This document shows, piece by piece, positions 8,161 to 60,253 of a stretch of DNA of 64,000 nucleotides (position 1 is its first letter; every line of letters begins with the position of its first letter). A program made the translations under genes and the position numbers. Origin of the DNA: a virus; IMG/VR virus record IMGVR_UViG_3300034143_000010; one strand, 5' to 3'. The notes below the pieces were generated by a model. The model did no database searches, was not told the origin of the DNA, and saw only the letters and a list, made by a program, of their open reading frames with translations.

Positions 8161-8811
8161 TTACTTCTTTAAGAGTTCATCTTGAGGAATCAGAGTATCT
8201 AAAGGGTAGCAACTGACGCTAAAGGAATCGGTGTATTCTTTCGCTTTCCAACTTGGTTCTACTAACATTGCTAAATCAGGAGGCGCTGCCCCTAAATAAG
8301 GATATACTTCTACCCCCTTTCTGTGATTGTGAACTACAAGCCAGAACTTTTCACCTAAATAGGGAGTCTTATGAATTGGTGATCTACTGTTTCTTGCTTT
8401 AATTATCCTCTCTGCTTTTGAAGTTAAAGAGTAACAAGTTCTATGAGTACCATCTGTAAAGACGCGGGCGTCGCCTTTCAATAAGCCAAGTTTTTCTAGA
8501 GTTTTAATAGTATTTGCTTCGATGTTGTCTATTTCTGATTTATCATTAATTCTAAACCATCTAATTGTACCTTGATACCATTCTAAAACATTTGCTGTAT
8601 AGTCTAATTCAAGTAGAAGTTGAAGCATTTCACTAATGCTTATTAAAATTTGCTCTTTGGCGGGAGGCTGGAGCGTCTTATCTGCTGCTTGCGCGTGCGT
8701 GATTAACGTTTCAGCTTGAGAGAAATCAATAGCAAGTTTTGCGCCATCTTGTAAGCAGTACTGTAAAGCATCATCCGTATAAGTACTCTGGCATTGGGGA
8801 CATCGTTTCAT
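8161..8811 (-). CDS. Zinc-ribbon N-terminal hypothetical protein
   Basis: MKRCPQCQSTYTDDALQYCLQDG. Start refined to the ATG 1 nt after the HTH stop. Confidence 0.7.
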   Translation of the reverse strand: MKRCPQCQSTYTDDALQYCLQDGAKLAIDFSQAETLITHAQAADKTLQPPAKEQILISISEMLQLLLELDYTANVLEWYQGTIRWFRINDKSEIDNIEANTIKTLEKLGLLKGDARVFTDGTHRTCYSLTSKAERIIKARNSRSPIHKTPYLGEKFWLVVHNHRKGVEVYPYLGAAPPDLAMLVEPSWKAKEYTDSFSVSCYPLDTLIPQDELLKK

Positions 8812-10237: not shown

Positions 10238-10738
10238 ATGGATACTTACAGAGAATTACCATTAGTCAATTCAGAGCAGATGGCGAGAGTTGATCTTGAA
10301 GATTACCTTCGCCTCAATCGCTATCGCTGGCATCTCACGCGGGTAGGTAAATACTCATACGTCTATCGGCTCAGGTGTATGGCCGGACGCTCCACGCAAA
10401 TAATGCTTCATCATGCCATCTTAGACTTACCGCAAGGCGTGCGCGTGAGGCGCATCAATAAAGAGACTCTTGATTATCGCCGCGCTAATCTGAGAATCAC
10501 TGACGGCTCTATCTATCGCAATCCACATTCAAAGCGTTGCCCCTATGCTGTGTGCATCACGATTGACGGGAAGCACTTCTACGTGGGGAGTTGGCCGACA
10601 AAGGAATGGGCGAAGAGGGCGAGAGATGCGGCGGCGGAAGCGGCAAAGACGTTGCGCGGTCGGGGGCTCTCGGAGAGGGCTATTCAGCGCGAGCTTGATC
10701 TGGCGGCGGGCCGGGATGTGAGGAAGAAAGCGGCATAG
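10238..10738 (+). CDS. Degenerate HNH-AP2 domain DNA-binding protein
   Basis: LHHAILDLPQGVRVRRINKETLDYRRANLR (HNH_3 pattern with DH replaced by RR) and ITIDGKHFYVGSWPTKEWAKRARDAAA (AP2-like). Confidence 0.7.
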   Translation: MDTYRELPLVNSEQMARVDLEDYLRLNRYRWHLTRVGKYSYVYRLRCMAGRSTQIMLHHAILDLPQGVRVRRINKETLDYRRANLRITDGSIYRNPHSKRCPYAVCITIDGKHFYVGSWPTKEWAKRARDAAAEAAKTLRGRGLSERAIQRELDLAAGRDVRKKAA

Positions 10739-10747
10739 TTTAACTAT

Positions 10748-11590
10748 ATGAGTAGAAGGCTCACACATAAAACTTGCACCGACTGCGGCGAGACAAAACC
10801 GCGCTCGGATTTTAGCTACGGCACAAAGGGCGAGACGCGACCATTCTGCGCGGATTGTCGGGACTTGCGAAACGTGCGGCGATATAAGGCTTGCACAGAA
10901 GGTCGGATGCGATACCTTGCCTCTATCAAAAACACTTCTGAGGTTAAAACCCTAGAGTGCCGCGAATGTAAATCAGTAAAACCTGTTTATGAATTTGCCA
11001 CGTATCTTAACTCAGAGGGTGAGCGGAAGCATTATAGAAGATGTAAGAGTTGCTACAACGAAGCCCAAAGACTTCTTCGCTTAAATTCAGGCTATACAAC
11101 AAAGCCTAGAATAAAAACAAAACCTTTCTTCTGTGCAAAACTTGGGCTGCTCACCAAGCTATGCTCTAAATGCGGCGAGGTCAAACCGTTAGACGAATTC
11201 CCGAAACTGTCTATTAAACGTGGATACCATACCGCCTGCGCCGTTTGCATGCGACGGGCGCACAAAGAATGGCTGAAAAAGAATCCCGACAAGTATATCG
11301 CGAATCGAATAAAGAGAATTCAAAGATTGCTTAGTGCGCCTTTAACAGAGGAAATTAACAGGGATGAAATTATCGAAAGGGATGCGCGCACTTGCTATCT
11401 CTGCGGGCGTAAACTAGAGGATGAAGTAATCACTTTAGATCATGTTATACCCCTTGCGCGGGGCGGCTCGCATACCGCTTCAAATCTTCGCGTAGCCTGT
11501 TTGAAGTGTAACAGCCGAAAAGGCGCAAAGCTTTTGCATGAATTAGATTGGATTAACGCTGAAACTTATGCAACCGCTCAAGCCCTGTAA
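10748..11590 (+). CDS. HNH endonuclease with N-terminal CxxC zinc-finger repeats
   Basis: CYLCG...TLDHVIPLARGGSHTASNLRVACLKCNSRKG and repeated CxxCGExKP units. Confidence 0.88.
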   Translation: MSRRLTHKTCTDCGETKPRSDFSYGTKGETRPFCADCRDLRNVRRYKACTEGRMRYLASIKNTSEVKTLECRECKSVKPVYEFATYLNSEGERKHYRRCKSCYNEAQRLLRLNSGYTTKPRIKTKPFFCAKLGLLTKLCSKCGEVKPLDEFPKLSIKRGYHTACAVCMRRAHKEWLKKNPDKYIANRIKRIQRLLSAPLTEEINRDEIIERDARTCYLCGRKLEDEVITLDHVIPLARGGSHTASNLRVACLKCNSRKGAKLLHELDWINAETYATAQAL

Positions 11591-30346: not shown

Positions 30347-30500
30347 CAAAGTGATCGCGCGTGCCCGTGACTACTCCGCATTACGCGGCTTCTCAAGCAA
30401 CGCCCTCCCTAATGGGACACGTTTGCGCTTGAAGGTTAAGCCCTAACCTCAATATCTCTAATGCGGCAGAGTGGTCACGACTAACACTCAAGCCGCATGT
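30347..30500 (-). ncRNA. Predicted TnpB omega-RNA (scaffold ending at TCAC 30367, guide beyond)
   Basis: Minus strand gagaagccgcgtaatgcggagtagTCAC is a typical IS200/605 right end just after tnpB. The 5' extent is a guess. Confidence 0.55.
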
Positions 30501-31514
30501 TTGGCATTCATGCCAGCGTTGCGAGAGTGTTTTAGGTACGCCAGCGCCGCATGTGCATCTCTGTGATGTTCCGCGAGGGTCAACTTTAACCAGCTTGCGT
30601 CCAGTCTCTTCCACTTTGTACGCAACCTTATTTAAAAAGCTTGACCATCCAGCATCATTAACAGACTTGGCTAGCATTCCGCTCGCCAAGCCTTTAATGT
30701 TCAAATCTTCTATGGCGATCAATCCGTAATTGTTGACGAGAGCGCGAGAGGCTTTATGGTGAAAGTCTGCGCGTTGATTCTTAATGTGGGCATGAATGCG
30801 CTGTAGAAGTTGCACGGCTTTCCGGCGACGATGAGAGCCTTTCTTCCGTCGTGCTACTTTGCGCTGTGCCCTGCGAAGCTTGGCTTGTGCTGTCTTGAAA
30901 TAGCGCGGGTTCTCTATTTCTGTACCATCAGAGAGGGTAGCGAAAGTGGTAAGGCCAACATCTATTCCAATAGACTCAGAGCAAGGCGGCAATGGCTTCT
31001 CTTCACATTCAAGACTAAAACACACGTACCAACGTCCAGCCTCGCGCTTAACAGAAACTGTCTTGATCTTGCCTTCGATAACGCGGTGAAGTTTTACTTT
31101 AACGAGCCCAATCCCTTGCAGTCTTAACTTGCCATTATCAAGTAAGCGGCAACCATTACCATAAGCAGGATAGGTAAAGCTGTCGAAGCGGCGTGCAGAT
31201 TTAAATCGCGGAAATCCCGCTTTCTCTTTACGCTTCACGCGAGCAAAGAAAGCCTTGAACGTCTTATCAAGACGGCGCAATACATCATGCGCTACGTTGC
31301 AATTGAAGATACCAGTGTCGCCCTCCGCTCGAATCTCTTTAAGCTGGCGTGTTTGATCGTATAGTTGGATGGACTTGCGCTCTAACTTCCAAGCGTCGCG
31401 GCGCTCCTGAAGCCCAGCGTTATAAAGTCTGCACGCCTCCGCTAGTTGACCATTCAGCAAGTCAACCTGTGCGCGTGTCGGATACAACCTATACTTGAAA
31501 GTCTTACGAATCAT
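30393..31514 (-). CDS. tnpB: RNA-guided endonuclease TnpB (IS605/IS1341-type)
   Basis: KTFKYRLYPT N-terminus, RuvC IGIDVGL / IAIEDLN / SRDHSAA, zinc finger CTCG...CQTCG. No tnpA in the window. Confidence 0.95.
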   Translation of the reverse strand: MIRKTFKYRLYPTRAQVDLLNGQLAEACRLYNAGLQERRDAWKLERKSIQLYDQTRQLKEIRAEGDTGIFNCNVAHDVLRRLDKTFKAFFARVKRKEKAGFPRFKSARRFDSFTYPAYGNGCRLLDNGKLRLQGIGLVKVKLHRVIEGKIKTVSVKREAGRWYVCFSLECEEKPLPPCSESIGIDVGLTTFATLSDGTEIENPRYFKTAQAKLRRAQRKVARRKKGSHRRRKAVQLLQRIHAHIKNQRADFHHKASRALVNNYGLIAIEDLNIKGLASGMLAKSVNDAGWSSFLNKVAYKVEETGRKLVKVDPRGTSQRCTCGAGVPKTLSQRWHECQTCGLSVSRDHSAALEILRLGLNLQAQTCPIREGVA

Positions 31515-31521
31515 CTGCTAT

Positions 31522-32022
31522 TTACGCAGCCTTCTTTCTCACATCCCGGCCCGCCGCCAGATCAAGCTCGCGCTGAATAGCCCTCTCCGAGAGCCCCCGA
31601 CCGCGCAACGTCTTTGCCGCTTCCGCCGCCGCATCTCTCGCCCTCTTCGCCCATTCCTTTGTCGGCCAACTCCCCACGTAGAAGTGCTTCCCGTCAATCG
31701 TGATGCACACGGCAAACGGGCAACGCTTTGAATGAGGATTGCGATAGATAGAGCCGTCAGTGATTTTCAGATTAGCGCGGCGATAATCAAGAGTCTCTTT
31801 ATTGATGCGCCGCACGCGCACGCCTCGCGGCAAATCCAACACGGCATGATGAAGCATTATTTGTGTGGAGCGTCCGGCCATACACCTGAGCCGATAGACG
31901 TATGAGTATTTACCTACGCGCATGAGATGCCAGCGATAGCGATTGAGGCGCAGGTAATCTTCAAGATCAACTATCGCCGTCTGCTCTGAATTGACTAATG
32001 GTAATTCTCTATAAGGTTTCAT
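31522..32022 (-). CDS. Degenerate HNH-AP2 domain protein (paralog of 10238-10738)
   Basis: Near-identical sequence, same loss of HNH catalytic residues. Confidence 0.7.
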   Translation of the reverse strand: MKPYRELPLVNSEQTAIVDLEDYLRLNRYRWHLMRVGKYSYVYRLRCMAGRSTQIMLHHAVLDLPRGVRVRRINKETLDYRRANLKITDGSIYRNPHSKRCPFAVCITIDGKHFYVGSWPTKEWAKRARDAAAEAAKTLRGRGLSERAIQRELDLAAGRDVRKKAA

Positions 32023-47848: not shown

Positions 47849-48223
47849 CTACCCGCGCCGGTCGTCGGGCCGGAAGCAGCCGTTACAATAAAGTGGCCTG
47901 TTGTTCTTCGGCCTGAACGGCACGGTCGTAGGCTTGCCGCACTTCGCACAGGTGATTTCGTAAGAGACGCGATGATCGGGCAGAGAGACTTTCTCTCGCG
48001 GCGCGCCCTCCCCGCGTGCGGAGCGCGCGCCCTTCCGGCACTCCTGACATCGCCTCGGCTCATGCTTGAAGCCCTTCTCCTTGAAGAACTCCTGCTCGCT
48101 CGCCGTCCAAACGAAATCCTGATCGCAATCTACGCAGTGAAGCCGCTTGTCGGTGAACTGGTGCGCGCTCTGCTGACGCGCCTCTCGTCCGTGGCGTACA
48201 TGTGCGCTCACGTCTTTGCTCAT
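47849..48223 (-). CDS. Zinc-ribbon / CxxC-x17-CxxC domain protein
   Basis: CVDCDQDFVWTASEQEFFKEKGF..EPRRCQECR and CAKCGKPTTVPFRP....LYCNGC. Confidence 0.88.
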   Translation of the reverse strand: MSKDVSAHVRHGREARQQSAHQFTDKRLHCVDCDQDFVWTASEQEFFKEKGFKHEPRRCQECRKGARSARGEGAPREKVSLPDHRVSYEITCAKCGKPTTVPFRPKNNRPLYCNGCFRPDDRRG

Positions 48224-49780: not shown

Positions 49781-50764
49781 TCACGAAGCCATCGCCATAC
49801 ACTCTTCGGCCTGCACGTAAGAGACTGGTTTATCAATCGAGTCGGCCACCTCTTCCGGCGTCAGGTAGTAGGGCTTTGAAGAATGCGCCGCCAGGTTGAC
49901 TTCCCAGCCGTAGCACTTCAGGTCTCTCGTTAGCAGAAGGCTGGTTGCGAACTCCGCCGCCTCCGCAGCGATCCGCGCGTTGATGTTGAAGGACTGAAGG
50001 CCGCGCGCGGTCAGTTCCGCGCAGCTCAGGTCGTTGCCTTCAATCTCTTCCGGCTCGGGGATAAGAAGGCTCGGATATAGAAGTGTCGGGCTCGGAATAC
50101 TGATGCATCTCTTCCGGCCAAGAAAAGCGCCGCGCATCTGCTCCACCGCGGGGGCCGTGCCGAGCAGCACTCTCCCGCTCCTGCGGTGATTGCCTAGATC
50201 AAGCCAGAAGATAGAAGGCAGCGCGTCCGGGGCTTCCGGCTGCACGGGGTTGTGCTGGAGAGTATCTGCGAGCGTGCGGCGGGCGGCGGCGTTGTCCGCG
50301 CAGCCGACGAGAAGCGTGAGATCTGCGCCGATCAGAAGATTCTCACTGTACTCACCGACGTAGGCGAGGGCATTTAAGCCCCATGCCTGACCGTAGCGGC
50401 GCGCCACCGCCTCCGCCTTCGGCACGCCGAGTTCTGCGTAGCAGAAGAGTTGGCGACCGATGTTTTTCTCTTCGACCATTTGCGGGTCACAGACTGTCAG
50501 GTTGACAACCTTGCCCGCGCGGTCGAGCGCGTATGCGAGACGCCCCATGTGCATCGTCATGTAAGAACCGTTACCGCCCGCGCCGGCGATGATGACCTGA
50601 ACGGAATCGAAGGGGCGCGTTGCGACCACAGAAGCGTTATAGAAGCCAAGGTTGACGGAGGGCGGCGGTTCGGGCTCTACTGTCGGCTGCGCCGGTTGTA
50701 CTGGGCGGGGTGAAATATGTTGTGGCTGTCGCGGGAACTTTTTCTTGACTTTTCTTTTGCTCAT
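49781..50764 (-). CDS. E1-like ThiF family protein (PRTRC ThiF-like)
   Basis: IAGAGGNGS, VEEKNIGRQ, VGCADN..AR, WLDLGN, DLSCAE. Confidence 0.9.
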   Translation of the reverse strand: MSKRKVKKKFPRQPQHISPRPVQPAQPTVEPEPPPSVNLGFYNASVVATRPFDSVQVIIAGAGGNGSYMTMHMGRLAYALDRAGKVVNLTVCDPQMVEEKNIGRQLFCYAELGVPKAEAVARRYGQAWGLNALAYVGEYSENLLIGADLTLLVGCADNAAARRTLADTLQHNPVQPEAPDALPSIFWLDLGNHRRSGRVLLGTAPAVEQMRGAFLGRKRCISIPSPTLLYPSLLIPEPEEIEGNDLSCAELTARGLQSFNINARIAAEAAEFATSLLLTRDLKCYGWEVNLAAHSSKPYYLTPEEVADSIDKPVSYVQAEECMAMAS

Positions 50765-51492
50765 GATTGCTCCTGAAGTAGGCAGTCGGTTAAGCCTTCC
50801 GGCAGCTCGAAAAACTCACTCGCCGGATATTCCATAAAATGCCCGAACAGTCCGACGCGTGCGCGAATCGTCGGCCTCTTGAAGATCGTGCCGATGACAG
50901 CGTAGATTCTGAACGTGGGTCCACCCTCGTCCGCGTCGTCCTTTTCGGAGAAGCGGGCCTCACCCGCGTGATGGCTATGCACCTCGATAATGGCTCGCGC
51001 CTCGGAGCTTCCCTGCCCTTGGTGAAGAGGCTTGACCTCGTCATCGGTCGCGCGCTGATCCGGGCATTCCAGATGCCAGCCGCGTGAGAGTAAGGGCGGC
51101 CCGAACGCAGGCTCGATGCACTGCCTGAAGTGGGTGTCTCCGAATGAAAGATGGAAAAGTGCCTCTTTCAATTCCGTGCGGCTGCGCACGAGCGAGACCT
51201 GAAGCATCAGCTCGACGAGCTGCTCCGGGACTTTCGGATAGCCCCACTGGACGTAAGGCTCGACGGTCTTGAGGCCATGCATCTCGTAGAGAGCAACAGG
51301 CACACACGCTTCGAGCCCGGCTTTGCGGCTACGCACGAATGTGCCGGTCGAGCCGACGACCCGCTCATAGAGAAGCGACTCGTCAACGGGCGGAAGCTGC
51401 TTGCCGCGAAGAGCGAAATAATTTTCTGTAAGACGGAAGCTCATTGGTTCGGTCTTCACTGTTTGAGTTGGCGGGGCGGTTCTCATTGCCAT
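50761..51492 (-). CDS. JAB/JAMM metallopeptidase (PRTRC protein A-like)
   Basis: IIEVHSHHAGEARFSEKDDADE. Confidence 0.9.
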   Translation of the reverse strand: MAMRTAPPTQTVKTEPMSFRLTENYFALRGKQLPPVDESLLYERVVGSTGTFVRSRKAGLEACVPVALYEMHGLKTVEPYVQWGYPKVPEQLVELMLQVSLVRSRTELKEALFHLSFGDTHFRQCIEPAFGPPLLSRGWHLECPDQRATDDEVKPLHQGQGSSEARAIIEVHSHHAGEARFSEKDDADEGGPTFRIYAVIGTIFKRPTIRARVGLFGHFMEYPASEFFELPEGLTDCLLQEQS

Positions 51493-51575
51493 TGAGCGGC
51501 TGCTCCGTTTTAGCTGCGCGCAATCCGCCGTGGAGCATCTCCCGGCTGAGACGTGCCGAATCCCGCCCGCGAAAC

Positions 51576-52295
51576 TTACGACGGTATCTCTCCCGTCTCG
51601 AAGAACACCCTGATCGCTTTATCAAGCGTTACGCCCACGTCGCGTACCTGCCGCATAAGATCATCGACCGGGTAGCGATCACAGCCTGCGCTTGACAGCT
51701 CTCGCAGCATCACGCGCACGTCTTGGCCTTCACGCTTCGATCTGCCCTTCGCCAGGTGGTTATTGAAGGTCGTCCCCATGAAGAGGTTAAACGCCTGAAG
51801 GAGAGCGAGAGGAGAGGAACGCGGCGGCTGCAAATCACCCCAGCAGACACGACCATCCTGGTAGAGATTGGAGAGCGGGGCGCGGTAGATTTCATGATAG
51901 GGTTCGAGATGGTCAGTCTTGACCGCCCAAACGAAGTAATCAACCTTGATGCCGAAACAGACGAGCCCCGGCAGAGGGATAGTGAGACGATCAACTTGGC
52001 TTTGCTGGCCGTCCGCGCCCTCGCGCGAGACTTCGAGCGTGTAGCGGCGCGGCGGCATAAACGCGAGCGCCCACTCTAACCCTCGATGACGGCCCGTGCG
52101 GCGAATTTCGGGCGGCAGCCATCCGGTGTCAATGGGGACGTTTGCGAACGCCTCCACAATCGCTTCGGGCGCGACGAATTTCTCCTGCACGCATCCTTGC
52201 TGATTCGTAAACCTGACGAGATATTGCCCGTCGGCGATCTCGATCATCGGGTTGGTCAGCCCGTCCTGCACAAGCTTCGTCATCGCTTCTGTCAT
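51576..52295 (-). CDS. Prokaryotic E2-like protein (PRTRC protein B-like)
   Basis: PLPGLV...FVWAVK...YRAPLSNLYQDGRVCWG with conserved Cys. Start refined to MTEAMTK. Confidence 0.85.
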   Translation of the reverse strand: MTEAMTKLVQDGLTNPMIEIADGQYLVRFTNQQGCVQEKFVAPEAIVEAFANVPIDTGWLPPEIRRTGRHRGLEWALAFMPPRRYTLEVSREGADGQQSQVDRLTIPLPGLVCFGIKVDYFVWAVKTDHLEPYHEIYRAPLSNLYQDGRVCWGDLQPPRSSPLALLQAFNLFMGTTFNNHLAKGRSKREGQDVRVMLRELSSAGCDRYPVDDLMRQVRDVGVTLDKAIRVFFETGEIPS

Positions 52296-53236
52296 TGCTC
52301 TCCCTCCGCGCGCCCCATAAGCGCCGTGAATATTTCCGTGTCCAGCATCCCCTCGAATCCTGATTCCCTCTCCAAAGCCGCCGCCTCGTTCCACAACTCC
52401 ACGGCGCGCGCAATGCGAGGCCCTGCGTCCTCGTCGAGCCACCGGTCGAGCTCCCCTACCCTGTAGTTCATCGCTTCGGCTTCCGCCCTCTTGTAGAGAA
52501 GCCAGGCCACGTTCTCGTGAGTCCACTCGAAACCGGCGCGGCCCGCTTGTGTTGGCAGATCGAGCCACGGATTTCCCGTTTTGTAGCAGACCATGTGGAA
52601 GGCCAGCGGCAGATGCCGAAGCGGCGTCTCTTCGACCGCGCAGGAATAGAGAAAGTGAGTCCAGCCGTAGGCTGCGAGCGGCGGCGAGGCCTCCTGCGTG
52701 AGCCCGTAATGCCTTGCGAGAGCAGTCCAGCCGTCAGGGGAATGCCCCGAGAGGACGAGCACGACCTTGAAGACGGTCTGAAGCTTCTGGAATGGGCAGC
52801 AGCCTCCCAGCCAGTTGTGCTGCTGCGTGCCCCTCACCGGGATATATTCGAGAAAGAAGTAGGGGTCACTCGCGATATTGCTTTCGAGCTCGTCTTCCAG
52901 GTCAGCGCTTAAGCAGAGCGGAAAGAGGCGCTTGTTGACGAGGCGGTAGAACTCGTGCTCGCGCTCGGTGGAATAGAGCGGGGCCTGCGAGCGCGCGTAC
53001 TCTTCCGGAAAGCTCTCGCGGAAGATGCTCATGACGCGGAGCGCGATATGAACGCGCTTGTCATAGGTCAATTGCCCGTGCGTCGCAGCCACGCCGATAA
53101 ATTCGGCAGCGCCGAGCGGCGTGCGCACGCGCGCGCGCCCCGCCAGATAAGTGCTGGCCCGGTCTAGGCTGAGCAGCTCGCGGCGCGCGAGAATGAATTC
53201 AGCGGCAGGCTGTGTTGTTTGAAGGCCGTCGAACAT
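52292..53236 (-). CDS. Hypothetical protein in the PRTRC protein F position
   Basis: Between the Ub-like and E2 genes, TGNPWLD motif. Confidence 0.55.
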   Translation of the reverse strand: MFDGLQTTQPAAEFILARRELLSLDRASTYLAGRARVRTPLGAAEFIGVAATHGQLTYDKRVHIALRVMSIFRESFPEEYARSQAPLYSTEREHEFYRLVNKRLFPLCLSADLEDELESNIASDPYFFLEYIPVRGTQQHNWLGGCCPFQKLQTVFKVVLVLSGHSPDGWTALARHYGLTQEASPPLAAYGWTHFLYSCAVEETPLRHLPLAFHMVCYKTGNPWLDLPTQAGRAGFEWTHENVAWLLYKRAEAEAMNYRVGELDRWLDEDAGPRIARAVELWNEAAALERESGFEGMLDTEIFTALMGRAEGEQ

Positions 53237-53241
53237 CGTTC

Positions 53242-53583
53242 TTATCCCCAGTTCGGCGTGCCCATCAGACGCGCAAGATTCTTTCGATTGAGCCCGGCCC
53301 TGATGGAGCGCACCATCACGCGATTAGCTTGCATGGCTTTGGGGTCTTCTTTCGTCTCACGCCACGTCTCCGCCGTGCAATGCAGTTGAAGCTCCTCGCC
53401 AGCATCGCCGACTCCGATACAAAAGACTTTGCCGGGCTCGACCGTCGGGTTGAACATGACGGGAATGCCTTCGAGTTCTTCCCCGCTCGGCTGTCCGGCT
53501 TTCTCGTCCGTCGCGCCATAAGCCTTCGCTATTTCTTCACGCGGAGCGGTCGTGAGCGTCCAGTCTTTGTTTTATTCTTTCAT
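53242..53583 (-). pseudogene. Gene with TAA at codon 4 (distal part open as 53242-53457)
   Basis: MKE*NKDWTLTTAPREEIAKAYG...GIPVMFNPTVEPG in one frame. Confidence 0.55.
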
Positions 53584-53594
53584 CGTCTGCACCT

Positions 53595-54062
53595 TCAGAA
53601 TCCGACCGGCACTTTGTTTGACGGAGACGGCGCAGCATGGATGAGCGCGACAAGCGTCTTACTCACCGCGCGCCCCTCGCGCTCCCCTTCGATCAGCGCG
53701 CGCTCGACCTCGCCTCGCCTAAGCGCGCCGTCCATGAAGCCTGTGTCGCCCATCGCCTCGGCTCGCATCGCTTCGGCTGCCAGTCGAATGGCCGGGTTGA
53801 CGTGTTTGGGCGCGCGCTCAAGCACTGCGACAAGCTCTTCCTGCTCCTGCGAGAGAGCGCCCTTGCCCTGCCCTCGCTTGACGACAGAGACCGAAGGCGC
53901 TGCGCCCGGCGTTATGCCGCGCTCGATAGTGATCTCCGCGTTCTCAATCGTGGGGATTTCTGCGGCGAGCGCCGCCCTGATTGCGGGTACACCCGCCTCG
54001 ACGATCTGGCTGGGGAGCGAGATGGGTTTCCCGTCCACATTCACAGTTGACATTTTGGACAT
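53595..54062 (-). CDS. Prokaryotic ubiquitin-like protein with C-terminal extension (PRTRC protein C-like)
   Basis: RBS ggag. VNVDGKPISLP...IRAALA..IPTIENAEI...VVKRGQGKG followed by about 85 further residues. Confidence 0.7.
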   Translation of the reverse strand: MSKMSTVNVDGKPISLPSQIVEAGVPAIRAALAAEIPTIENAEITIERGITPGAAPSVSVVKRGQGKGALSQEQEELVAVLERAPKHVNPAIRLAAEAMRAEAMGDTGFMDGALRRGEVERALIEGEREGRAVSKTLVALIHAAPSPSNKVPVGF

Positions 54063-54078
54063 GGTTATACTCCTCGGG

Positions 54079-55758
54079 TTATTTGGTAGCCCGCGTGCGG
54101 CTCTTCTTCGATGACCTGGCAGAAGACTTCGCGGCGCTCTTCTTGGTAATGGCCTTCTTCGATGAGCGTGCAGAGCTCTTCTGAGCGGGCTTACGCTTCT
54201 GCGACGCGATTTTCGGCTGGGCATCACCCTTCTTCGTCGGGGCGGAAGCGGGCTTGTTTTTCACGCCAAGCTTTTCCTGAATCTGCTTCATAACAGGCTC
54301 TGGGAAACGCACCTCGCTGACGGCAAGCAGCTCGCGGCTCGCTTCTGAGACCTTGCCGTCGGCCATGACGGAGACCTGCGCCAAGCCCTTCACGCCAGGC
54401 ATGTTGAAAGTAAAGGTGACGGCGACCGGGCGGCCACGGAGAAGTGTCTCGATTGAAGGGCGCGCCGCCGCCTCTGCGTGAGCGCGCTCTTGAGTTGCAG
54501 GCCGGGCCGAGGCGGTAGTTGTCGTGGTAGCTGCCGGCGGGCGGGTGCTAGGCGATGGCGTCTCTGAAGCGGGAGGCGCTTCTTCCGTGGCCTTTTCTTC
54601 GACGTGCGCGACCGCACCGGTCGCGCTTGCGCTTGGAACGTTATCTGCCACCTCAGCCTCTTCGATGATCATCAGCGGCTGGGAAGTCAGCTCATATGAG
54701 CCGCTCTCGCCTCGCCTGATGAGGCCGTCCTGCTCGGCGATGATGATTGGATAACGCTCGCAGCCCAAATCTTCGAGCGCCATCAGCGTGAGAGGGCCGC
54801 GCTCTCGGATAGCCGCGACCACGTCGTCGGAAGTCCAAGGCCGCGCCAAGGGCTGATCCTGTGTAGACGTTACCGGCTTATGGCTGTCGACGATCTCTTT
54901 CGCCGTCGAGTGCGTGATCTGCTCGCCTGCCGCAGCGCGCTCAGCTGCTTCCTCTCGCGCACCTTCAGGAGTTGACGGGGCCGACAGAACATATATGGCT
55001 GACTGACCGAGCTGATCTTCGAGTCCCCGAAAGCGCGGGTTCTCAACAAAGAACCGGGCCGCGCGCATCCACTTCTCGGCGCTCGAAATTGACCCCTGAA
55101 ACTCCGCCTTCAGCCATTCGCCGAACTTCCCGTGCCCGAGATTTTCTTTAATGGTTTGGAGGCGCTCGCCGACTTCGACGATGCTGTTTCTGATTGTGCC
55201 CAAACGCTCTTTGATCTCGCGCGTACAGGTCTGCACCACGTCGCGCGTGTCTTCGTCAAGCGCGGAGTAATCGAAGGAGAAAGTGAGCTGCTCCGGGTCG
55301 GGAGCGACGAGTGCAGCGTCGGGCTCGACTACGAAGTCGTTCCTCTCCGCGTATAGCCGCCGGCTGCACTCGTCAAGGGCCTGCTTGAGCGCCTTCTGGC
55401 CGGTCGGAGTGAAGCGCTCGTCGCGCGCTTCATCTATATAGGGCACGTTATGCAGGTTGTGCTCATCAAGAAAATGCTGAAAGTCTGACGGCGTTTTAAT
55501 CAGTGCGAGCCTGGCGATGAAGGGCATGACGGGAAGTGCGTTCGGTGCGTTCTTTTCCTCATGCTCCACGTCCATCTCGCACGCAGCGGCGACCGCGTGC
55601 AGCTCCCGCTCGCAGAGGGCGGTCTTCATGCCGAAGCGTTCGTTCTCGGCGTAGAATTTGCCGCTCTCTTTGTCGCGGCGAAGTTTCCATCCCTTGACTC
55701 TTAGCTCGGGCGGGATGACGCCCGCGTTAGGTGACGGCGTTGTGACTGCTGAGCTCAT
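54079..55758 (-). CDS. DUF3102 domain protein with PRTRC protein E-like C-terminus
   Basis: IVEVGERLQTIKENLGHGKFGEWLKAEF..SISSAEKWM. First gene of the operon. Confidence 0.75.
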   Translation of the reverse strand: MSSAVTTPSPNAGVIPPELRVKGWKLRRDKESGKFYAENERFGMKTALCERELHAVAAACEMDVEHEEKNAPNALPVMPFIARLALIKTPSDFQHFLDEHNLHNVPYIDEARDERFTPTGQKALKQALDECSRRLYAERNDFVVEPDAALVAPDPEQLTFSFDYSALDEDTRDVVQTCTREIKERLGTIRNSIVEVGERLQTIKENLGHGKFGEWLKAEFQGSISSAEKWMRAARFFVENPRFRGLEDQLGQSAIYVLSAPSTPEGAREEAAERAAAGEQITHSTAKEIVDSHKPVTSTQDQPLARPWTSDDVVAAIRERGPLTLMALEDLGCERYPIIIAEQDGLIRRGESGSYELTSQPLMIIEEAEVADNVPSASATGAVAHVEEKATEEAPPASETPSPSTRPPAATTTTTASARPATQERAHAEAAARPSIETLLRGRPVAVTFTFNMPGVKGLAQVSVMADGKVSEASRELLAVSEVRFPEPVMKQIQEKLGVKNKPASAPTKKGDAQPKIASQKRKPAQKSSARSSKKAITKKSAAKSSARSSKKSRTRATK

Positions 55759-56023
55759 AAAGTGACTCCTCTGAGGCTGGCTCCTCCGCCAGCGTTGAAT
55801 TGCTCATCAGGGTTTGATCGCTGCGCGCTTCACAAAGGGCGCGAGCGAGATTGCGCCTGTAAACAGCCGCGTGATGCTCGCGCCCTTCCTCTACGGCCCG
55901 CTGAATGCCTTCGACATATAGCTCGATGGTCTTGTCGATAAACGATCCCGGCACGTCTATCCTCAGAAGTGAATGCCGACTAAAAAGGAATGTCGTTGTC
56001 GTCTTGGCCGCCCGTGCTATCAC
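55727..56023 (-). CDS. Hypothetical protein
   Basis: 98-aa ORF coupled to neighbours. Start uncertain. Confidence 0.4.
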   Translation of the reverse strand: MIARAAKTTTTFLFSRHSLLRIDVPGSFIDKTIELYVEGIQRAVEEGREHHAAVYRRNLARALCEARSDQTLMSNSTLAEEPASEESLYELSSHNAVT

Positions 56024-56801
56024 CCACCCCCTGTTGCCCGGCTTCGTTAGCGGCGATTAAAGCATCAAGCTTCTGAGAGAGGTGGCCCTTCAATTCGCGC
56101 AAACGGTCAATGTCAAGACCATCAAAGCCCCCCGTCGTCATTAACGTCTCATTGACGTAGGCATTAAGAAGGGCCTTCGACCAGCGCGGCGTGTGCCCGG
56201 CATGATTCATCGCCGCGCATATCTGCTCGACCTCTTCGACGAGTTGCCCGCGCTCTGGACTTGGCTCTGCTGCCGCAGGAGGAGCGGCACTAAGAGAGCG
56301 CTCGTTGACCAGGCGCGCGCCGGGGATGGTCTCAGTCTCGGATTCGTCGAGAAAGCCGAGCCCGCAGATGCTCAAAGTCACGCGCCGCCGCGCCTTTGTT
56401 TCCGCCTTCATCATGGCGTTGCAGAGCGCATCGCCGCTCAGGCCCTTGATGGAGACGGCCCCGATGGATTCGTCCGTGCGGCCATCGTGCGTCGTAGCCC
56501 TGGCCGTCACGATGTATACGTCTTCCGACTTCTCGCGCCCGACGATCTGGACGCTCACGTTATTGATCTTGCGTAACTGGTCGGTGCAGTCCTTGCGCGC
56601 GTAGAGCGTCAGCTTGTTGTTGAGCGTGATGTACTCGAAGGGCCGGGTGAACGGGTTGAGCCCGACCGACTGGCAGACGGCGTTGTAATAGCGCGTTCTG
56701 TCTGCCGGGGTGAGTTTGGAGAGATCGCCGGCGACAATAACTCTTTCCATTATCTCACCGGCTTCACCTGATTTCTGTAACGCCTGACTTGCCTGAACCA
56801 T
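55980..56801 (-). CDS. Single-strand annealing (RecT/Redbeta-like) recombinase
   Basis: GLNPFTRPFEYI.LNNKLTLYA...AMMKAETKARRRVTLSICGLGFLDESE. C-terminus DDNDIPF. Confidence 0.8.
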   Translation of the reverse strand: MVQASQALQKSGEAGEIMERVIVAGDLSKLTPADRTRYYNAVCQSVGLNPFTRPFEYITLNNKLTLYARKDCTDQLRKINNVSVQIVGREKSEDVYIVTARATTHDGRTDESIGAVSIKGLSGDALCNAMMKAETKARRRVTLSICGLGFLDESETETIPGARLVNERSLSAAPPAAAEPSPERGQLVEEVEQICAAMNHAGHTPRWSKALLNAYVNETLMTTGGFDGLDIDRLRELKGHLSQKLDALIAANEAGQQGVGDSTGGQDDNDIPF

Positions 56802-58829: not shown

Positions 58830-58907
58830 CGTGTTATCCCCTCGCCCTCAAAATTAAGAGGAGCCGACGCGAGCGACTCTCGCCGCCCGTATCGGCTCCC
58901 ACCATCT

Positions 58908-59420: not shown

Positions 59421-59447
59421 GTGCGTTCCCTCCACTGGAACGCATAT

Positions 59448-59485
59448 TAACATCGAATGTTATGCGTTGTCAACATATCATGTTA
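59448..59485. promoter_or_regulatory. Two AACAT-N3-ATGTT operators over a minus-strand TTGACA-18-TAATAT promoter
   Basis: taacatcgaatgtta and caacatatcatgtta read directly. Confidence 0.75.
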
Positions 59486-59725
59486 AGTTCGGGCAGGAAT
59501 ATTTTGAGTCGCCGCTAATGGTTGATCGTAAAGGAGATCGGTTAGGTTGTGCCCGAGTCGTTGTGCGATACGAGCTAACAAGAGGGGGGAGACGGCGACA
59601 CCTGTTTCAACCCTTGAGATTGTAACTGATGTAACTCCAAGCTCTTCAGCGAGTTGCTGTTGGGTGAGCCCGGCGTCTTTGCGTAGTTTAGCGACCCTCG
59701 CATGGTCGTAGTATTTCGCATCCAT
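59483..59725 (-). CDS. Cro-like XRE HTH protein
   Basis: LRKDAGLTQQQLAEELGVTSVTISRVETG. TTGACA-17-TAGCAT ends 6 nt before the ATG. Confidence 0.88.
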   Translation of the reverse strand: MDAKYYDHARVAKLRKDAGLTQQQLAEELGVTSVTISRVETGVAVSPLLLARIAQRLGHNLTDLLYDQPLAATQNIPART

Positions 59726-59757
59726 GCGCGCATGCTATACGAAGCCCATCGCTGTGT

Positions 59758-59815
59758 CAACATGAAATGTTAAGAATATAGCATTGTAATGTTAATAACA
59801 TCAGATTTAACATCC
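59758..59815. promoter_or_regulatory. CI/Cro divergent control region with AACAT-N3-ATGTT operator
   Basis: caacatgaaatgtta plus two degenerate half-matches. Confidence 0.7.
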
Positions 59816-59821
59816 TGTGTT

Positions 59822-60253
59822 ATGAACGGACGGGGCAATAAATCGCCAACGAAGGTGCTCTGGAAGGAATTTGGAGCATGGATACAGCGCGAGCGCGAAC
59901 TTGCCGGGTTGAAGCAAGATCAGGTTGCCGCGAAGGTTGGTATTCACCCCGTTCAATTATCGCGTATTGAAAATGGAGAGAGCGGCACGAAGCGCGATAC
60001 AGTGATCGCCCTAGCATGTGCAATTGATATCAACGAAGCCGAGGCGTTGCAAAGAGCGGGCTTTGCTTCTCCCACCGAAGCCGCAAAGCCTAACGGCTAT
60101 GATGAATCCGAGTTCGCCCTACTTCACTCAAGGGTCAAAAAATTGACACCCCAACAGAAACGTGACTTCTATATCTTTTGGAATGCCGCTGAAAGATATG
60201 TGGCAGAGAAAGAGCGGGAGAACCAGCAGAATAACGGAAACGACGAGGGATAA
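59822..60253 (+). CDS. CI-like XRE repressor
   Basis: RERELAGLKQDQVAAKVGIHPVQLSRIENGES. No S24 autocleavage domain. Confidence 0.85.
   Translation: MNGRGNKSPTKVLWKEFGAWIQRERELAGLKQDQVAAKVGIHPVQLSRIENGESGTKRDTVIALACAIDINEAEALQRAGFASPTEAAKPNGYDESEFALLHSRVKKLTPQQKRDFYIFWNAAERYVAEKERENQQNNGNDEG

What the first reader, a model, noticed from the sequence alone, without database searches (positions are those of the whole stretch)
49781..55758. Complete PRTRC-like ubiquitination operon in the phage early/replication region
Coupled genes for a DUF3102/protein-E-like protein, a Ub-like protein, an F-position protein, E2 (VCWG Cys), JAB (HSH-x7-S-x2-D) and E1/ThiF (GxGGxG, NIGRQ, SCAE Cys) lie between the recombinase and the replication initiator on the lytic strand. 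PRTRC cassettes are known mainly from plasmids and ICEs, usually with ParB, and their function is unknown. Here ParB is absent and the context implies a phage-run protein-conjugation pathway, possibly for counter-defence or replication control (inference).
Basis: partly seen in the sequence, partly recalled or inferred. Interest (0 to 1): 0.78.

Follow-up and report, generated by a model that had tools for sequence, protein, structure and literature searches.

The report
Phage ubiquitin-like tagging operon, PRTRC-type
A prophage of a soil acidobacterium carries, in its early operon, a complete-looking kit for attaching a small ubiquitin-like protein to other proteins; this kind of cassette was predicted in 2006, is already annotated in other phages and I found no experimental test of it, but this clade shows clearly that its protease is there to trim the tag into its active form.

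Summary
Window 49781-55758 (minus strand) encodes a coupled gene row. In order: a DUF3102 protein with a Lys-rich tail, a ubiquitin-like (Ubl) precursor, a non-conserved 71-aa ORF, an alpha-helical protein, an E2 (Prok-E2_D), a JAB peptidase and a ThiF-type E1.

It is a divergent branch of operon type 6d of Iyer et al. 2006, also called PRTRC. The three enzymes hit the PRTRC models below their cut-offs. The C, E and F positions do not hit them at all.

It is not a first. Ralstonia phage Dina is annotated with the same gene order, two papers report PRTRC in prophages, and this scan has noted the kind 137 times in at least 121 genomes.

What I add:
- In 30 of 30 loci with JAB, the Ubl runs on past a conserved Lys-Gly. 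In 3 of 3 loci without JAB it stops exactly there, and JAB was lost at least twice. JAB is therefore the maturation peptidase.
- ParB is absent here, but 9 of 13 relatives carry a ParB/Srx-like domain where this window has DUF3102.

Target and biological role remain unknown.

The parts
54079..55758 (-). E-position protein (559 aa). It has an N-terminal conserved region, a DUF3102 domain (aa 176-237), a low-complexity linker, a conserved C-terminal domain (about aa 430-500) and a Lys-rich tail.
   Evidence: Pfam DUF3102, E 1e-7, and PHROG families of unknown function. The C-terminal domain and basic tail are conserved in 13 relatives. The gene is always directly upstream of the Ubl gene. There is no match to PRTRC_E.
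53595..54062 (-). Ubl precursor (155 aa). It has a beta-grasp Ubl (aa 1-68) ending in Lys67-Gly68 (Gly68 codon at 53859-53861), then a linker, then a helical domain (aa 72-141) whose tail ends ...VPVGF.
   Evidence: AlphaFold model, pLDDT 85.4. Residues 1-68 align to Fubi, ISG15 and SUMO1 at Z 5.1-5.5, rmsd 2.2-2.7 A, over 58-62 residues. The Lys-Gly is conserved in 16 of 17 clade Ubls. It is in register with the Lys-Gly of phage Dina's PRTRC-C by hhalign, E 0.009.
53242..53457 (-). 71-aa ORF in a variable slot. Not conserved, and it may not be a real gene.
   Evidence: No tblastn match in any related locus. Relatives have nothing or unrelated genes at this place.
52292..53236 (-). F-position protein (314 aa): an alpha-helical protein of unknown fold and role.
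   Evidence: Conserved in 18 loci. Confident model, pLDDT 89.8, pTM 0.82. No solved relative, best Z 3.8. Only uncharacterised AFDB clusters match. No match to PRTRC_F.
51576..52295 (-). E2-like protein (239 aa from the ATG at 52295, which overlaps the stop of F). The catalytic candidate is Cys151, with His180.
   Evidence: Prok-E2_D, E 1.9e-18, and PRTRC_B, E 5e-12. C151 and H180 are invariant in 8 sequences.
50761..51492 (-). JAB/JAMM metallopeptidase (243 aa). Predicted to cut the Ubl precursor after Gly68.
   Evidence: Prok-JAB, E 1.9e-6, and PRTRC_A, E 1.9e-9. E110, H172, H174, S182 and D185 are invariant in 15 sequences. A GGAG lies 10 nt before the ATG.
49781..50764 (-). ThiF-type E1 (327 aa). 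It has a nucleotide-binding loop (G61-G66), R104/Q105, D157, and the candidate thioester Cys248.
   Evidence: PRTRC_ThiF, E 3.4e-37. Invariant residues are listed. In the complex prediction the Ubl tail (62-67) is placed against D157/R162 (weak support).
59444..59760 (-). Promoter-like sites facing the minus-strand early genes, opposite a CI-like repressor gene (59789-60253, + strand).
   Evidence: Two 10-of-12 sigma-70-like matches. The scan found 5 such sites against 3.3 +/- 1.9 expected by chance. HTH_3 and repressor PHROGs. Consensus scan only.

Best explanation
This is a prophage-borne ubiquitin-like protein-conjugation cassette of Iyer type 6d (PRTRC kind). It is expressed as part of the phage's leftward early operon.

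Proposed mechanism:
1. The tag is made as an inactive precursor: a beta-grasp Ubl (residues 1-68) capped by an 87-residue extension containing a helical domain.
2. The JAB metallopeptidase cuts after Lys67-Gly68. This frees the Ubl carboxyl end and also releases the helical protein, whose invariant ...PxGF end suggests a docking peptide.
3. The ThiF-type E1 adenylates Gly68 and takes the Ubl onto Cys248.
4. The E2 takes it onto Cys151, assisted by His180.
5. The E2 passes it to a lysine of an unknown target, probably with the helical F protein and/or the DNA-binding E-position protein choosing the target.

Shown here: gene content and order, intact catalytic residues, the Ubl fold, and the JAB/cap co-variation.

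Inferred: every chemical step, expression timing and the target.

My best guess for the role is action on proteins at the replicating or recombining phage DNA (about 35%), rather than counter-defence (about 15%).
For: Family matches and invariant catalytic residues.

Ubl fold.

The Ubl C-terminus is fixed at a conserved Lys-Gly. It is in register with phage Dina's PRTRC-C.

JAB and the cap go together:
- All 14 clade loci with JAB have residues after Lys-Gly. The extension is the helical domain, an unrelated domain, or 17-32 residues.
- Phages Dina and BgVeeders33 are also capped.
- The three JAB-less loci with the Ubl in view end exactly at that position.
- One JAB-less host genome, 98% complete, has no JAB of this family anywhere.
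- The E1 tree needs at least two JAB losses.

E1-Ubl complex prediction: score 0.41 against a best control of 0.05, verdict 'weak support'. The mark was reached by 58 of 80 solved complexes and 2 of 110 mismatched pairs. At 0.60 or under it was reached by only 7 of those 80 and by both mismatches that passed. The Ubl tail is placed at the adenylation residues.

Phage setting:
- Tape measure and DUF4055 (portal-associated, by my own knowledge) on the same strand.
- Divergent repressor and promoter-like sites.
- 12 IMG/VR loci carry the clade.

The description of operon type 6d in PMC1779556 fits feature by feature.
Against: - There is no biochemical evidence for any member of this kind in the literature I could search.
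- The enzymes score below NCBIfam's PRTRC cut-offs.
- No E3 or target was identified.
- The complex score is only a weak pass, may reflect memory of solved E1-Ubl complexes, and I cut the Ubl one residue short of Gly68.
- One JAB-less Ubl ends Lys-His rather than Lys-Gly.
- Expression could not be tested: no RNA runs hold this DNA.
- Loci are related, so the 30 and 3 are not independent counts. Only two or more loss events are.
- The promoter scan is a generic consensus.
Confidence: 0.7

Rival explanations
1. It is an anti-phage defence system carried by the prophage for the benefit of the lysogen, like Bil. It would tag proteins of superinfecting phages rather than serve the phage's own lytic programme.
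For: The characterised bacterial Ubl systems (Bil, type II CBASS, probably Bub) are defence systems (PMC11601596). Prophages often carry defence genes. The window has other defence-like cargo (earlier notes).
Against: The cassette sits inside the minus-strand early gene row and is tightly coupled to neighbouring phage genes. It is on the strand opposite the repressor, whereas the defence-like cargo noted in the window lies on the + strand. Its GC content matches the flanking phage genes and not the low-GC insertions. In relatives it lies next to SSB or annealing-protein genes. No PADLOC scan was run.
Confidence: 0.12
2. It is a sulfur-carrier or thiocarboxylate pathway rather than protein conjugation. 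JAB would trim a ThiS-like carrier and the E1 would activate it for sulfur transfer. QbsD/QbsE and CysO/Mec+ are my own recollection and were not checked here.
For: JAB plus a capped beta-grasp protein plus a ThiF-type E1 is also the make-up of those sulfur-carrier systems. PMC1779556 discusses this reading for JAB-ThiS/MoaD associations.
Against: An E2-fold protein with invariant Cys151 and His180 is always present. The Ubl ends Lys-Gly, not Gly-Gly. No rhodanese, sulfurtransferase or cofactor-synthesis gene lies in or beside the cassette here or in relatives. The setting is phage replication genes.
Confidence: 0.05
3. The cassette is a separate mobile module that merely landed in this prophage and is not part of its programme, or it is decaying.
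For: The genes flanking the cassette differ among relatives: only the cassette is shared with the window. The cassette therefore moves as a module. Small unrelated ORFs are inserted between its genes in several relatives.
Against: No integrase, transposase or repeats bound it. Composition matches the flanks. All catalytic residues are intact. All genes are open and coupled. Module exchange is normal for phage early regions.
Confidence: 0.06

Closest known systems
PRTRC cassette, which is operon type 6d of Iyer, Burroughs & Aravind 2006 (PMC1779556). Example: Ralstonia phage Dina gp07-gp02 (NC_055026).
   Same: Same gene order: E-position, Ubl, helical protein, E2, JAB, E1. The E2 has a Cys plus a downstream His. 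The Ubl ends at a conserved Lys-Gly and is capped. The E1 is of the PRTRC_ThiF type at 128 bits. It is carried by mobile elements, including phages.
   Different: The enzymes fall below the PRTRC model cut-offs. The C, E and F positions give no model hit. The F and E proteins show no profile similarity to Dina's. There is no separate ParB gene. The E-position protein is long and carries DUF3102, or a ParB/Srx-like domain in relatives. The cap is a conserved helical domain ending PxGF.
Bil system (BilABCD), bacterial anti-phage ubiquitination
   Same: Ubl, E2, JAB peptidase and E1 in one operon, with cysteine-based transfer expected and no E3 (PMC11601596).
   Different: [quoted passage not shown] Here the E1 is a single 327-aa ThiF-type protein. 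Bil is a host defence system. This cassette is in a phage early operon.
Type I Bub (6E/DUF6527) operons
   Same: The Ubl is made as a fusion that the operon's JAB peptidase must cut to yield a working Ubl: BubCD cleaves BubAB (PMC11601596).
   Different: Bub works through oxyester intermediates, has no catalytic cysteines and has a DUF6527 serine protease. Here both E1 and E2 keep invariant cysteines, and no DUF6527 hit was seen. The cap is not the E2.
Type II CBASS Cap2/Cap3
   Same: E1 and E2 chemistry with a JAB peptidase on mobile defence islands.
   Different: Cap2 is an E2-E1 fusion that conjugates the cGAS-like enzyme itself, and there is no separate Ubl. Here there are separate E1, E2 and Ubl genes.
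Eukaryotic ubiquitin precursors (ubiquitin-ribosomal protein fusions, polyubiquitin with a terminal extra residue) and the archaeal Caldiarchaeum operon. Own knowledge, not checked here.
   Same: The tag is translated with a C-terminal cap or fused to a second useful protein, and is released by a deubiquitinase, which in the archaeon is of the JAB type.
   Different: The end is Gly-Gly rather than Lys-Gly. The fused partner and the biological setting are unrelated.

Membership tests
PRTRC (NCBIfam TIGR03734-03742) | ThiF family protein reaches the TIGR03736 cut-off | tested here: not met
   128.1 bits against a cut-off of 144.75, E 3.4e-37. It is by far the best family.
PRTRC (NCBIfam TIGR03734-03742) | Proteins A (JAB) and B (E2) reach the TIGR03735 and TIGR03737 cut-offs | tested here: not met
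   A: 37.3 bits against 101.8. B: 45.6 bits against 131.45. Both are the top or only hits.
PRTRC (NCBIfam TIGR03734-03742) | Proteins C, E and F match their models | tested here: not met
   No hit, even at E 1-10, for the window's proteins and relatives. The C protein aligns weakly but in register with Dina's PRTRC-C (hhalign E 0.009). F and E do not align.
PRTRC (NCBIfam TIGR03734-03742) | Linked ParB family gene | tested here: not met
   No ParB_N on the contig, and none in the window by tblastn. In 9 of 13 relatives the E-position protein has a ParB/Srx-like domain.
PRTRC (NCBIfam TIGR03734-03742) | Gene order E, C, F, B, A, ThiF | tested here: met
   Same order as annotated in phage Dina.
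Iyer et al. 2006 operon type 6d | [quoted passage not shown] | tested here: met
   Model and fold matches. Lys-Gly conserved in 16 of 17 clade Ubls.
Iyer et al. 2006 operon type 6d | E2-like protein with a conserved Cys, lacking the classical His but with an absolutely conserved His downstream | tested here: met
   C151 and H180 invariant. LPN replaces HPN before the Cys. Definition from the paper.
Iyer et al. 2006 operon type 6d | Rapidly diverging, largely alpha-helical protein in the operon | tested here: met
   The F model is almost all helix, pLDDT 89.8. It is 18-52% identical among relatives.
Iyer et al. 2006 operon type 6d | Separate JAB with an N-terminal extra domain, and an E1 without rhodanese | tested here: met
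   The JAB motif starts at residue 172 of 243, and Glu110 and the region upstream are conserved. The E1 is ThiF only. The paper's conserved Arg/Trp of JAB-N was not checked column by column.
Pfam Prok-E2_D (PF14460) | Score above the gathering threshold | tested here: met
   67.2 bits against 25. It is the only copy in the genome.
Bil (BilABCD) | [quoted passage not shown] | tested here: not met
   Single 327-aa ThiF-type E1 with one adenylation domain. Definition from PMC11601596.
Bub (6E/DUF6527) | E1 and E2 lack catalytic cysteines, and a DUF6527 serine protease is present | tested here: not met
   Invariant Cys248 (E1) and Cys151 (E2). No DUF6527 hit among the seven genes.

The most novel reading that the evidence does not exclude
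The precursor is a two-in-one device. JAB cleavage at Lys67-Gly68 simultaneously arms the Ubl and releases a helical adaptor. The adaptor's invariant PxGF carboxyl end docks onto a replication or recombination protein. The E-position protein brings the machinery to phage DNA through DUF3102, which is interchangeable with a ParB/Srx-like domain, and through its Lys-rich tail. The phage would then use ubiquitin-like tagging in its early programme to control proteins on replicating DNA, or host proteins that attack it.
Probability: 0.2. Interest if true: 0.75.

Novelty: new variant of a known kind. Interest (0 to 1): 0.45.

Why it matters
The bacterial ubiquitin-like systems characterised so far (Bil, type II CBASS) act in defence against phages, and Bub's genomic context suggests the same. 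This kind sits on the other side, in phages, plasmids and ICEs, and I found no experimental test of it since its prediction in 2006.

The Pyrinomonadaceae phage clade gives a clean, testable first step:
- The tag is always capped when the JAB peptidase is present.
- It is never capped when JAB is absent.
- The cut site is fixed at a Lys-Gly.

It also gives two leads to the site of action. First, a ParB/Srx-like domain is interchangeable with DUF3102 in the partner protein. Second, a released helical protein has an invariant PxGF end.

A practical consequence for mass spectrometry follows. Trypsin would leave only a single glycine (+57 Da) on modified lysines, which is isobaric with carbamidomethylation, so standard di-Gly workflows would miss the modification.

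Tried and rejected
- blastn of the whole region against 50,697 phage records: no match.
- PHROGs: no family for the Ubl, F, E2 or JAB proteins, and only marginal hits for E1.
- NCBIfam at E up to 10 for Ubl and E-position pieces of the window and relatives: no PRTRC_C or PRTRC_E. For 18 F proteins: no PRTRC_F.
- hhalign of F against Dina gp05 and of the E C-terminal domain against Dina gp07: nothing.
- Fold search of the confident F model: no solved relative, best Z 3.8. Only unnamed AFDB clusters matched, plus one hit automatically named 'Knr4/Smi1-like', which I do not trust.
- Foldseek of the two-domain Ubl model against PDB: no hit at E <= 0.001. The ubiquitin-like matches came from the VIA search.
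- The helical cap matched only generic helical hairpins.
- Pfam on single ParB-like segments: marginal, one of nine at E 0.09. The assignment rests on profile comparisons.
- A clamp-binding motif of the kind earlier notes reported for other PRTRC cassettes was looked for by eye at the ends of the E-position proteins. They end in Lys-rich tails instead.
- The Atlas search for the E protein gave only DUF3102 and winged-helix leads.
- No RNA runs hold this DNA, so expression could not be examined.
Only Atlas leads support those labels.
- Slip: in the complex job I ended the Ubl at Lys67, not Gly68.

Full report
OBSERVATION. The minus strand of 49781-55758 carries a row of open, mostly tightly spaced genes.

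Family scans identify four of them:
- 54079-55758: DUF3102, E 1e-7.
- 51576-52295: E2 of Pfam family Prok-E2_D, E 1.9e-18. Its best NCBIfam hit is PRTRC_B.
- 50761-51492: JAB peptidase, Prok-JAB E 1.9e-6. Its best NCBIfam hit is PRTRC_A.
- 49781-50764: ThiF-type E1. PRTRC_ThiF E 3.4e-37, 128 bits against a cut-off of 144.75.

Each is invariant in alignments with relatives:
- E2: Cys151 in VCWG, plus His180.
- JAB: Glu110, His172, His174, Ser182, Asp185.
- E1: the G61-G66 loop, Asn101, Arg104, Gln105, Asp157 and Cys248 in SCAE.

First, an extra, non-conserved 71-aa ORF lies at 53242-53457. Second, 'E-like' and 'F-position' are statements of position, not of detected homology.

THE TAG. The gene at 53595-54062 starts at an ATG with a GAGGAG 7 nt upstream. 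The model built from 25 related sequences has pLDDT 85.4. It shows a beta-grasp domain (residues 1-61 structured, ending at Lys67-Gly68), a low-confidence linker, and a helical domain at 72-141. Residues 1-68 superpose on Fubi, ISG15 and SUMO1 at Z 5.1-5.5 and rmsd 2.2-2.7 A over 58-62 residues. The helical part matches only generic hairpins. Foldseek alone gave no significant hit. A profile of the clade aligns with PRTRC protein C of Ralstonia phage Dina weakly (E 0.009). The alignment is in register, Lys-Gly on Lys-Gly.

JAB AND THE CAP. This is the main thing I can add. I collected related loci from three sources:
- genomes of the host's order;
- IMG/VR;
- two annotated phages.

In every locus that has the JAB gene, the Ubl reading frame runs on past the conserved Lys-Gly:
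- In the window and nine relatives, the extension is the helical domain.
- In L031 and L032, it is an unrelated domain.
- In L035 and L041, it is 17-32 residues.
- In 14 loci of another genus, it is only 1-6 residues that differ from locus to locus (A, TL, SSGQKP, YE, N, IR, CK, YK, YAA).
- In phages Dina and BgVeeders33, it is about 60 residues.

In the three JAB-less loci where the Ubl gene is in view (L003, L026, L037), the frame stops exactly at that position, and the helical domain is a gene of its own. A fourth JAB-less locus is cut by its contig end.

One JAB-less host genome, 98% complete, has no JAB of this family anywhere. On an E1 tree the JAB-less loci need at least two losses.

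The counts (30 of 30, 3 of 3) are inflated by relatedness. Even so, two independent co-losses, plus caps that vary freely in sequence but never in presence, argue that JAB is required to expose Gly68. Iyer et al. anticipated this role in general terms.

THE OTHER TWO PROTEINS. F (52292-53236) is conserved across 18 loci and models confidently as an all-helical protein (pLDDT 89.8, pTM 0.82). It has no solved relative (best Z 3.8). It resembles only uncharacterised AFDB clusters. It shows no similarity to PRTRC_F by model or profile. [quoted passage not shown]

The E-position protein always lies directly before the Ubl gene. It always ends in a conserved domain followed by a Lys-rich tail. Its middle is modular. 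In 9 of 13 relatives it holds a ParB/Srx-like domain with the QPR and DGxHR signatures:
- hhalign to the host's own ParB_N gives probability 83.8%, E 7.8e-6.
- PDB profile hits are sulfiredoxin at E 1.2e-4 and ParB at E 0.007.

The window and three relatives have DUF3102 there instead. So 'ParB absent' is true of this copy, but the ParB link persists in the clade. DUF3102 looks like a functional stand-in, which points to DNA as the place of action (inference).

SETTING. Evidence that the window is a tailed prophage:
- Tape measure, DUF4055 (a domain I recall as portal-associated; not checked here) and other late genes lie on the same strand.
- A CI-like repressor gene at 59789-60253 diverges from the minus-strand genes.
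- Two 10-of-12 promoter-like sites lie at 59.45-59.76 kb. No promoter-like site was called inside the cassette, and the one minus-strand terminator-like site between those promoters and the cassette (58861-58879) is weak (consensus scan only).

GC content of the cassette matches its flanks. The upstream 273-aa protein resembles viral Rad52/RecT-type clusters. The 311-aa protein downstream resembles HTH_36 replication proteins. Both are leads only, and Pfam, PHROGs and PDB searches gave nothing for them.

The genome copy held for searching breaks at window position 31570, beside a TnpB gene that has a 93% copy elsewhere. The window itself has no gap.

Titles of related genome records name Pyrinomonadaceae, of the Acidobacteriota. 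The DNA occurs in soil and biocrust metagenomes, and no RNA run holds it.

DISTRIBUTION AND PRIOR KNOWLEDGE. The E1 finds relatives in 52 of 301 sampled genomes of the order, often several per genome. All 14 sampled loci are of the window's type. The search returned twelve IMG/VR loci for the clade, 11 distinct contigs of 30-93 kb, one of them already held as L003.

In the literature:
- Operon type 6d was described in 2006 (PMC1779556).
- PRTRC is reported in a B. gladioli prophage, with the remark that its function is unstudied (PMC13366799).
- In a P. vulgatus prophage, protein B is a mutational hotspot (bioRxiv 10.64898/2026.10.01.756045).
- Bil, CBASS and Bub have been worked out, but not this kind (PMC11601596).
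- Four further searches found no functional study.

This scan has noted the kind 137 times in at least 121 genomes.

MECHANISM AND RIVALS. The most likely mechanism has five steps:
1. Early transcription.
2. JAB cuts after Gly68.
3. E1 adenylates the Ubl and takes it onto Cys248.
4. E2 takes it onto Cys151.
5. The Ubl is transferred to a lysine of an unknown target.

A complex prediction of E1 with Ubl 1-67 gave 0.41 against a best control of 0.05, verdict 'weak support'. The mark was reached by 58 of 80 solved complexes and 2 of 110 mismatches. At 0.60 or under it was reached by only 7 of the 80 and by both passing mismatches. The Ubl tail is placed against Asp157 and Arg162. That may be memory of solved E1 complexes, and I cut the Ubl one residue short.

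Rivals:
- Lysogen-serving defence system (0.12).
- Sulfur-carrier pathway (0.05). The ever-present E2 and the Lys-Gly end argue against it.
- Passenger or decaying module (0.06).

The remaining probability, about 0.07, is for something not listed.

VERDICT. The cassette is real, and it is a divergent variant of a known but untested kind. It is not new in being phage-borne.

Noticed in passing
window 53595-53855 (-), and the separate genes L026:8851-9099, L003:819-1067, L027:119-379, L037:4322-4579 and L041:4323-4571: The helical domain that caps the Ubl, or is encoded separately, always ends in [V/I/L]-P-x-G-F at the very C-terminus. Gly-Phe is invariant in all copies seen. A free carboxyl-end peptide this conserved suggests a docking motif, loosely like the IPF end of SSB.
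   Followed up: partly
window 55980-56801 (-); L024:12944-13432; L028:5914-6306: The likely annealing protein upstream of the cassette ends ...DDNDIPF, an SSB-like acidic tail. In two relatives a true SSB-like gene ending DDIPF follows the E1 gene directly.
   Followed up: no
E-position genes: window 54079-55758; L024:6276-8849; L025:604-3393; L026:9293-10522; L037:795-3866, among others: The middle of the E-position protein is either a ParB/Srx-like domain (9 relatives) or DUF3102 (the window and 3 relatives), between conserved N- and C-terminal parts. This domain swap hints that DUF3102 does a ParB-like job.
   Followed up: partly
window 47849-48223 (-); L029:10826-11170: A protein with two treble-clef zinc-finger domains (Pfam zf_Tbcl and zf_Tbcl_2) lies a few genes downstream of the E1, here and in one other lineage. 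By my own knowledge, treble clefs include RING-type E3s, so it could belong to the system. This was not tested.
   Followed up: partly
L037:3872-4081: One JAB-less Ubl ends Lys-His instead of Lys-Gly. This could be an inactivated tag, a sequencing error or a tolerated variant.
   Followed up: no
relatives L025:6507-6815, L034:5681-6034, L035:6828-7331 and 8261-8752, L031:7677-8090, L040:7372-7824, L027:246-1127: Small unrelated ORFs are inserted at the E2/JAB and JAB/E1 junctions and between the Ubl gene and F in several relatives. These junctions act as variable slots, like the 71-aa ORF of the window.
   Followed up: no
window 30393-31570; G000 contigs C20, C30 and C11: The genome copy held for searching breaks at window position 31570, next to a TnpB/IS605-type gene. 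A 93% identical copy starts contig C30, so this is a repeat-induced assembly break and not a gap in the window.
   Followed up: partly
G279 contig C176, about 10401-11279: The genome with the JAB-less locus L027 holds a second, fragmentary cassette copy: a partial E1 and a JAB with an internal stop.
   Followed up: no
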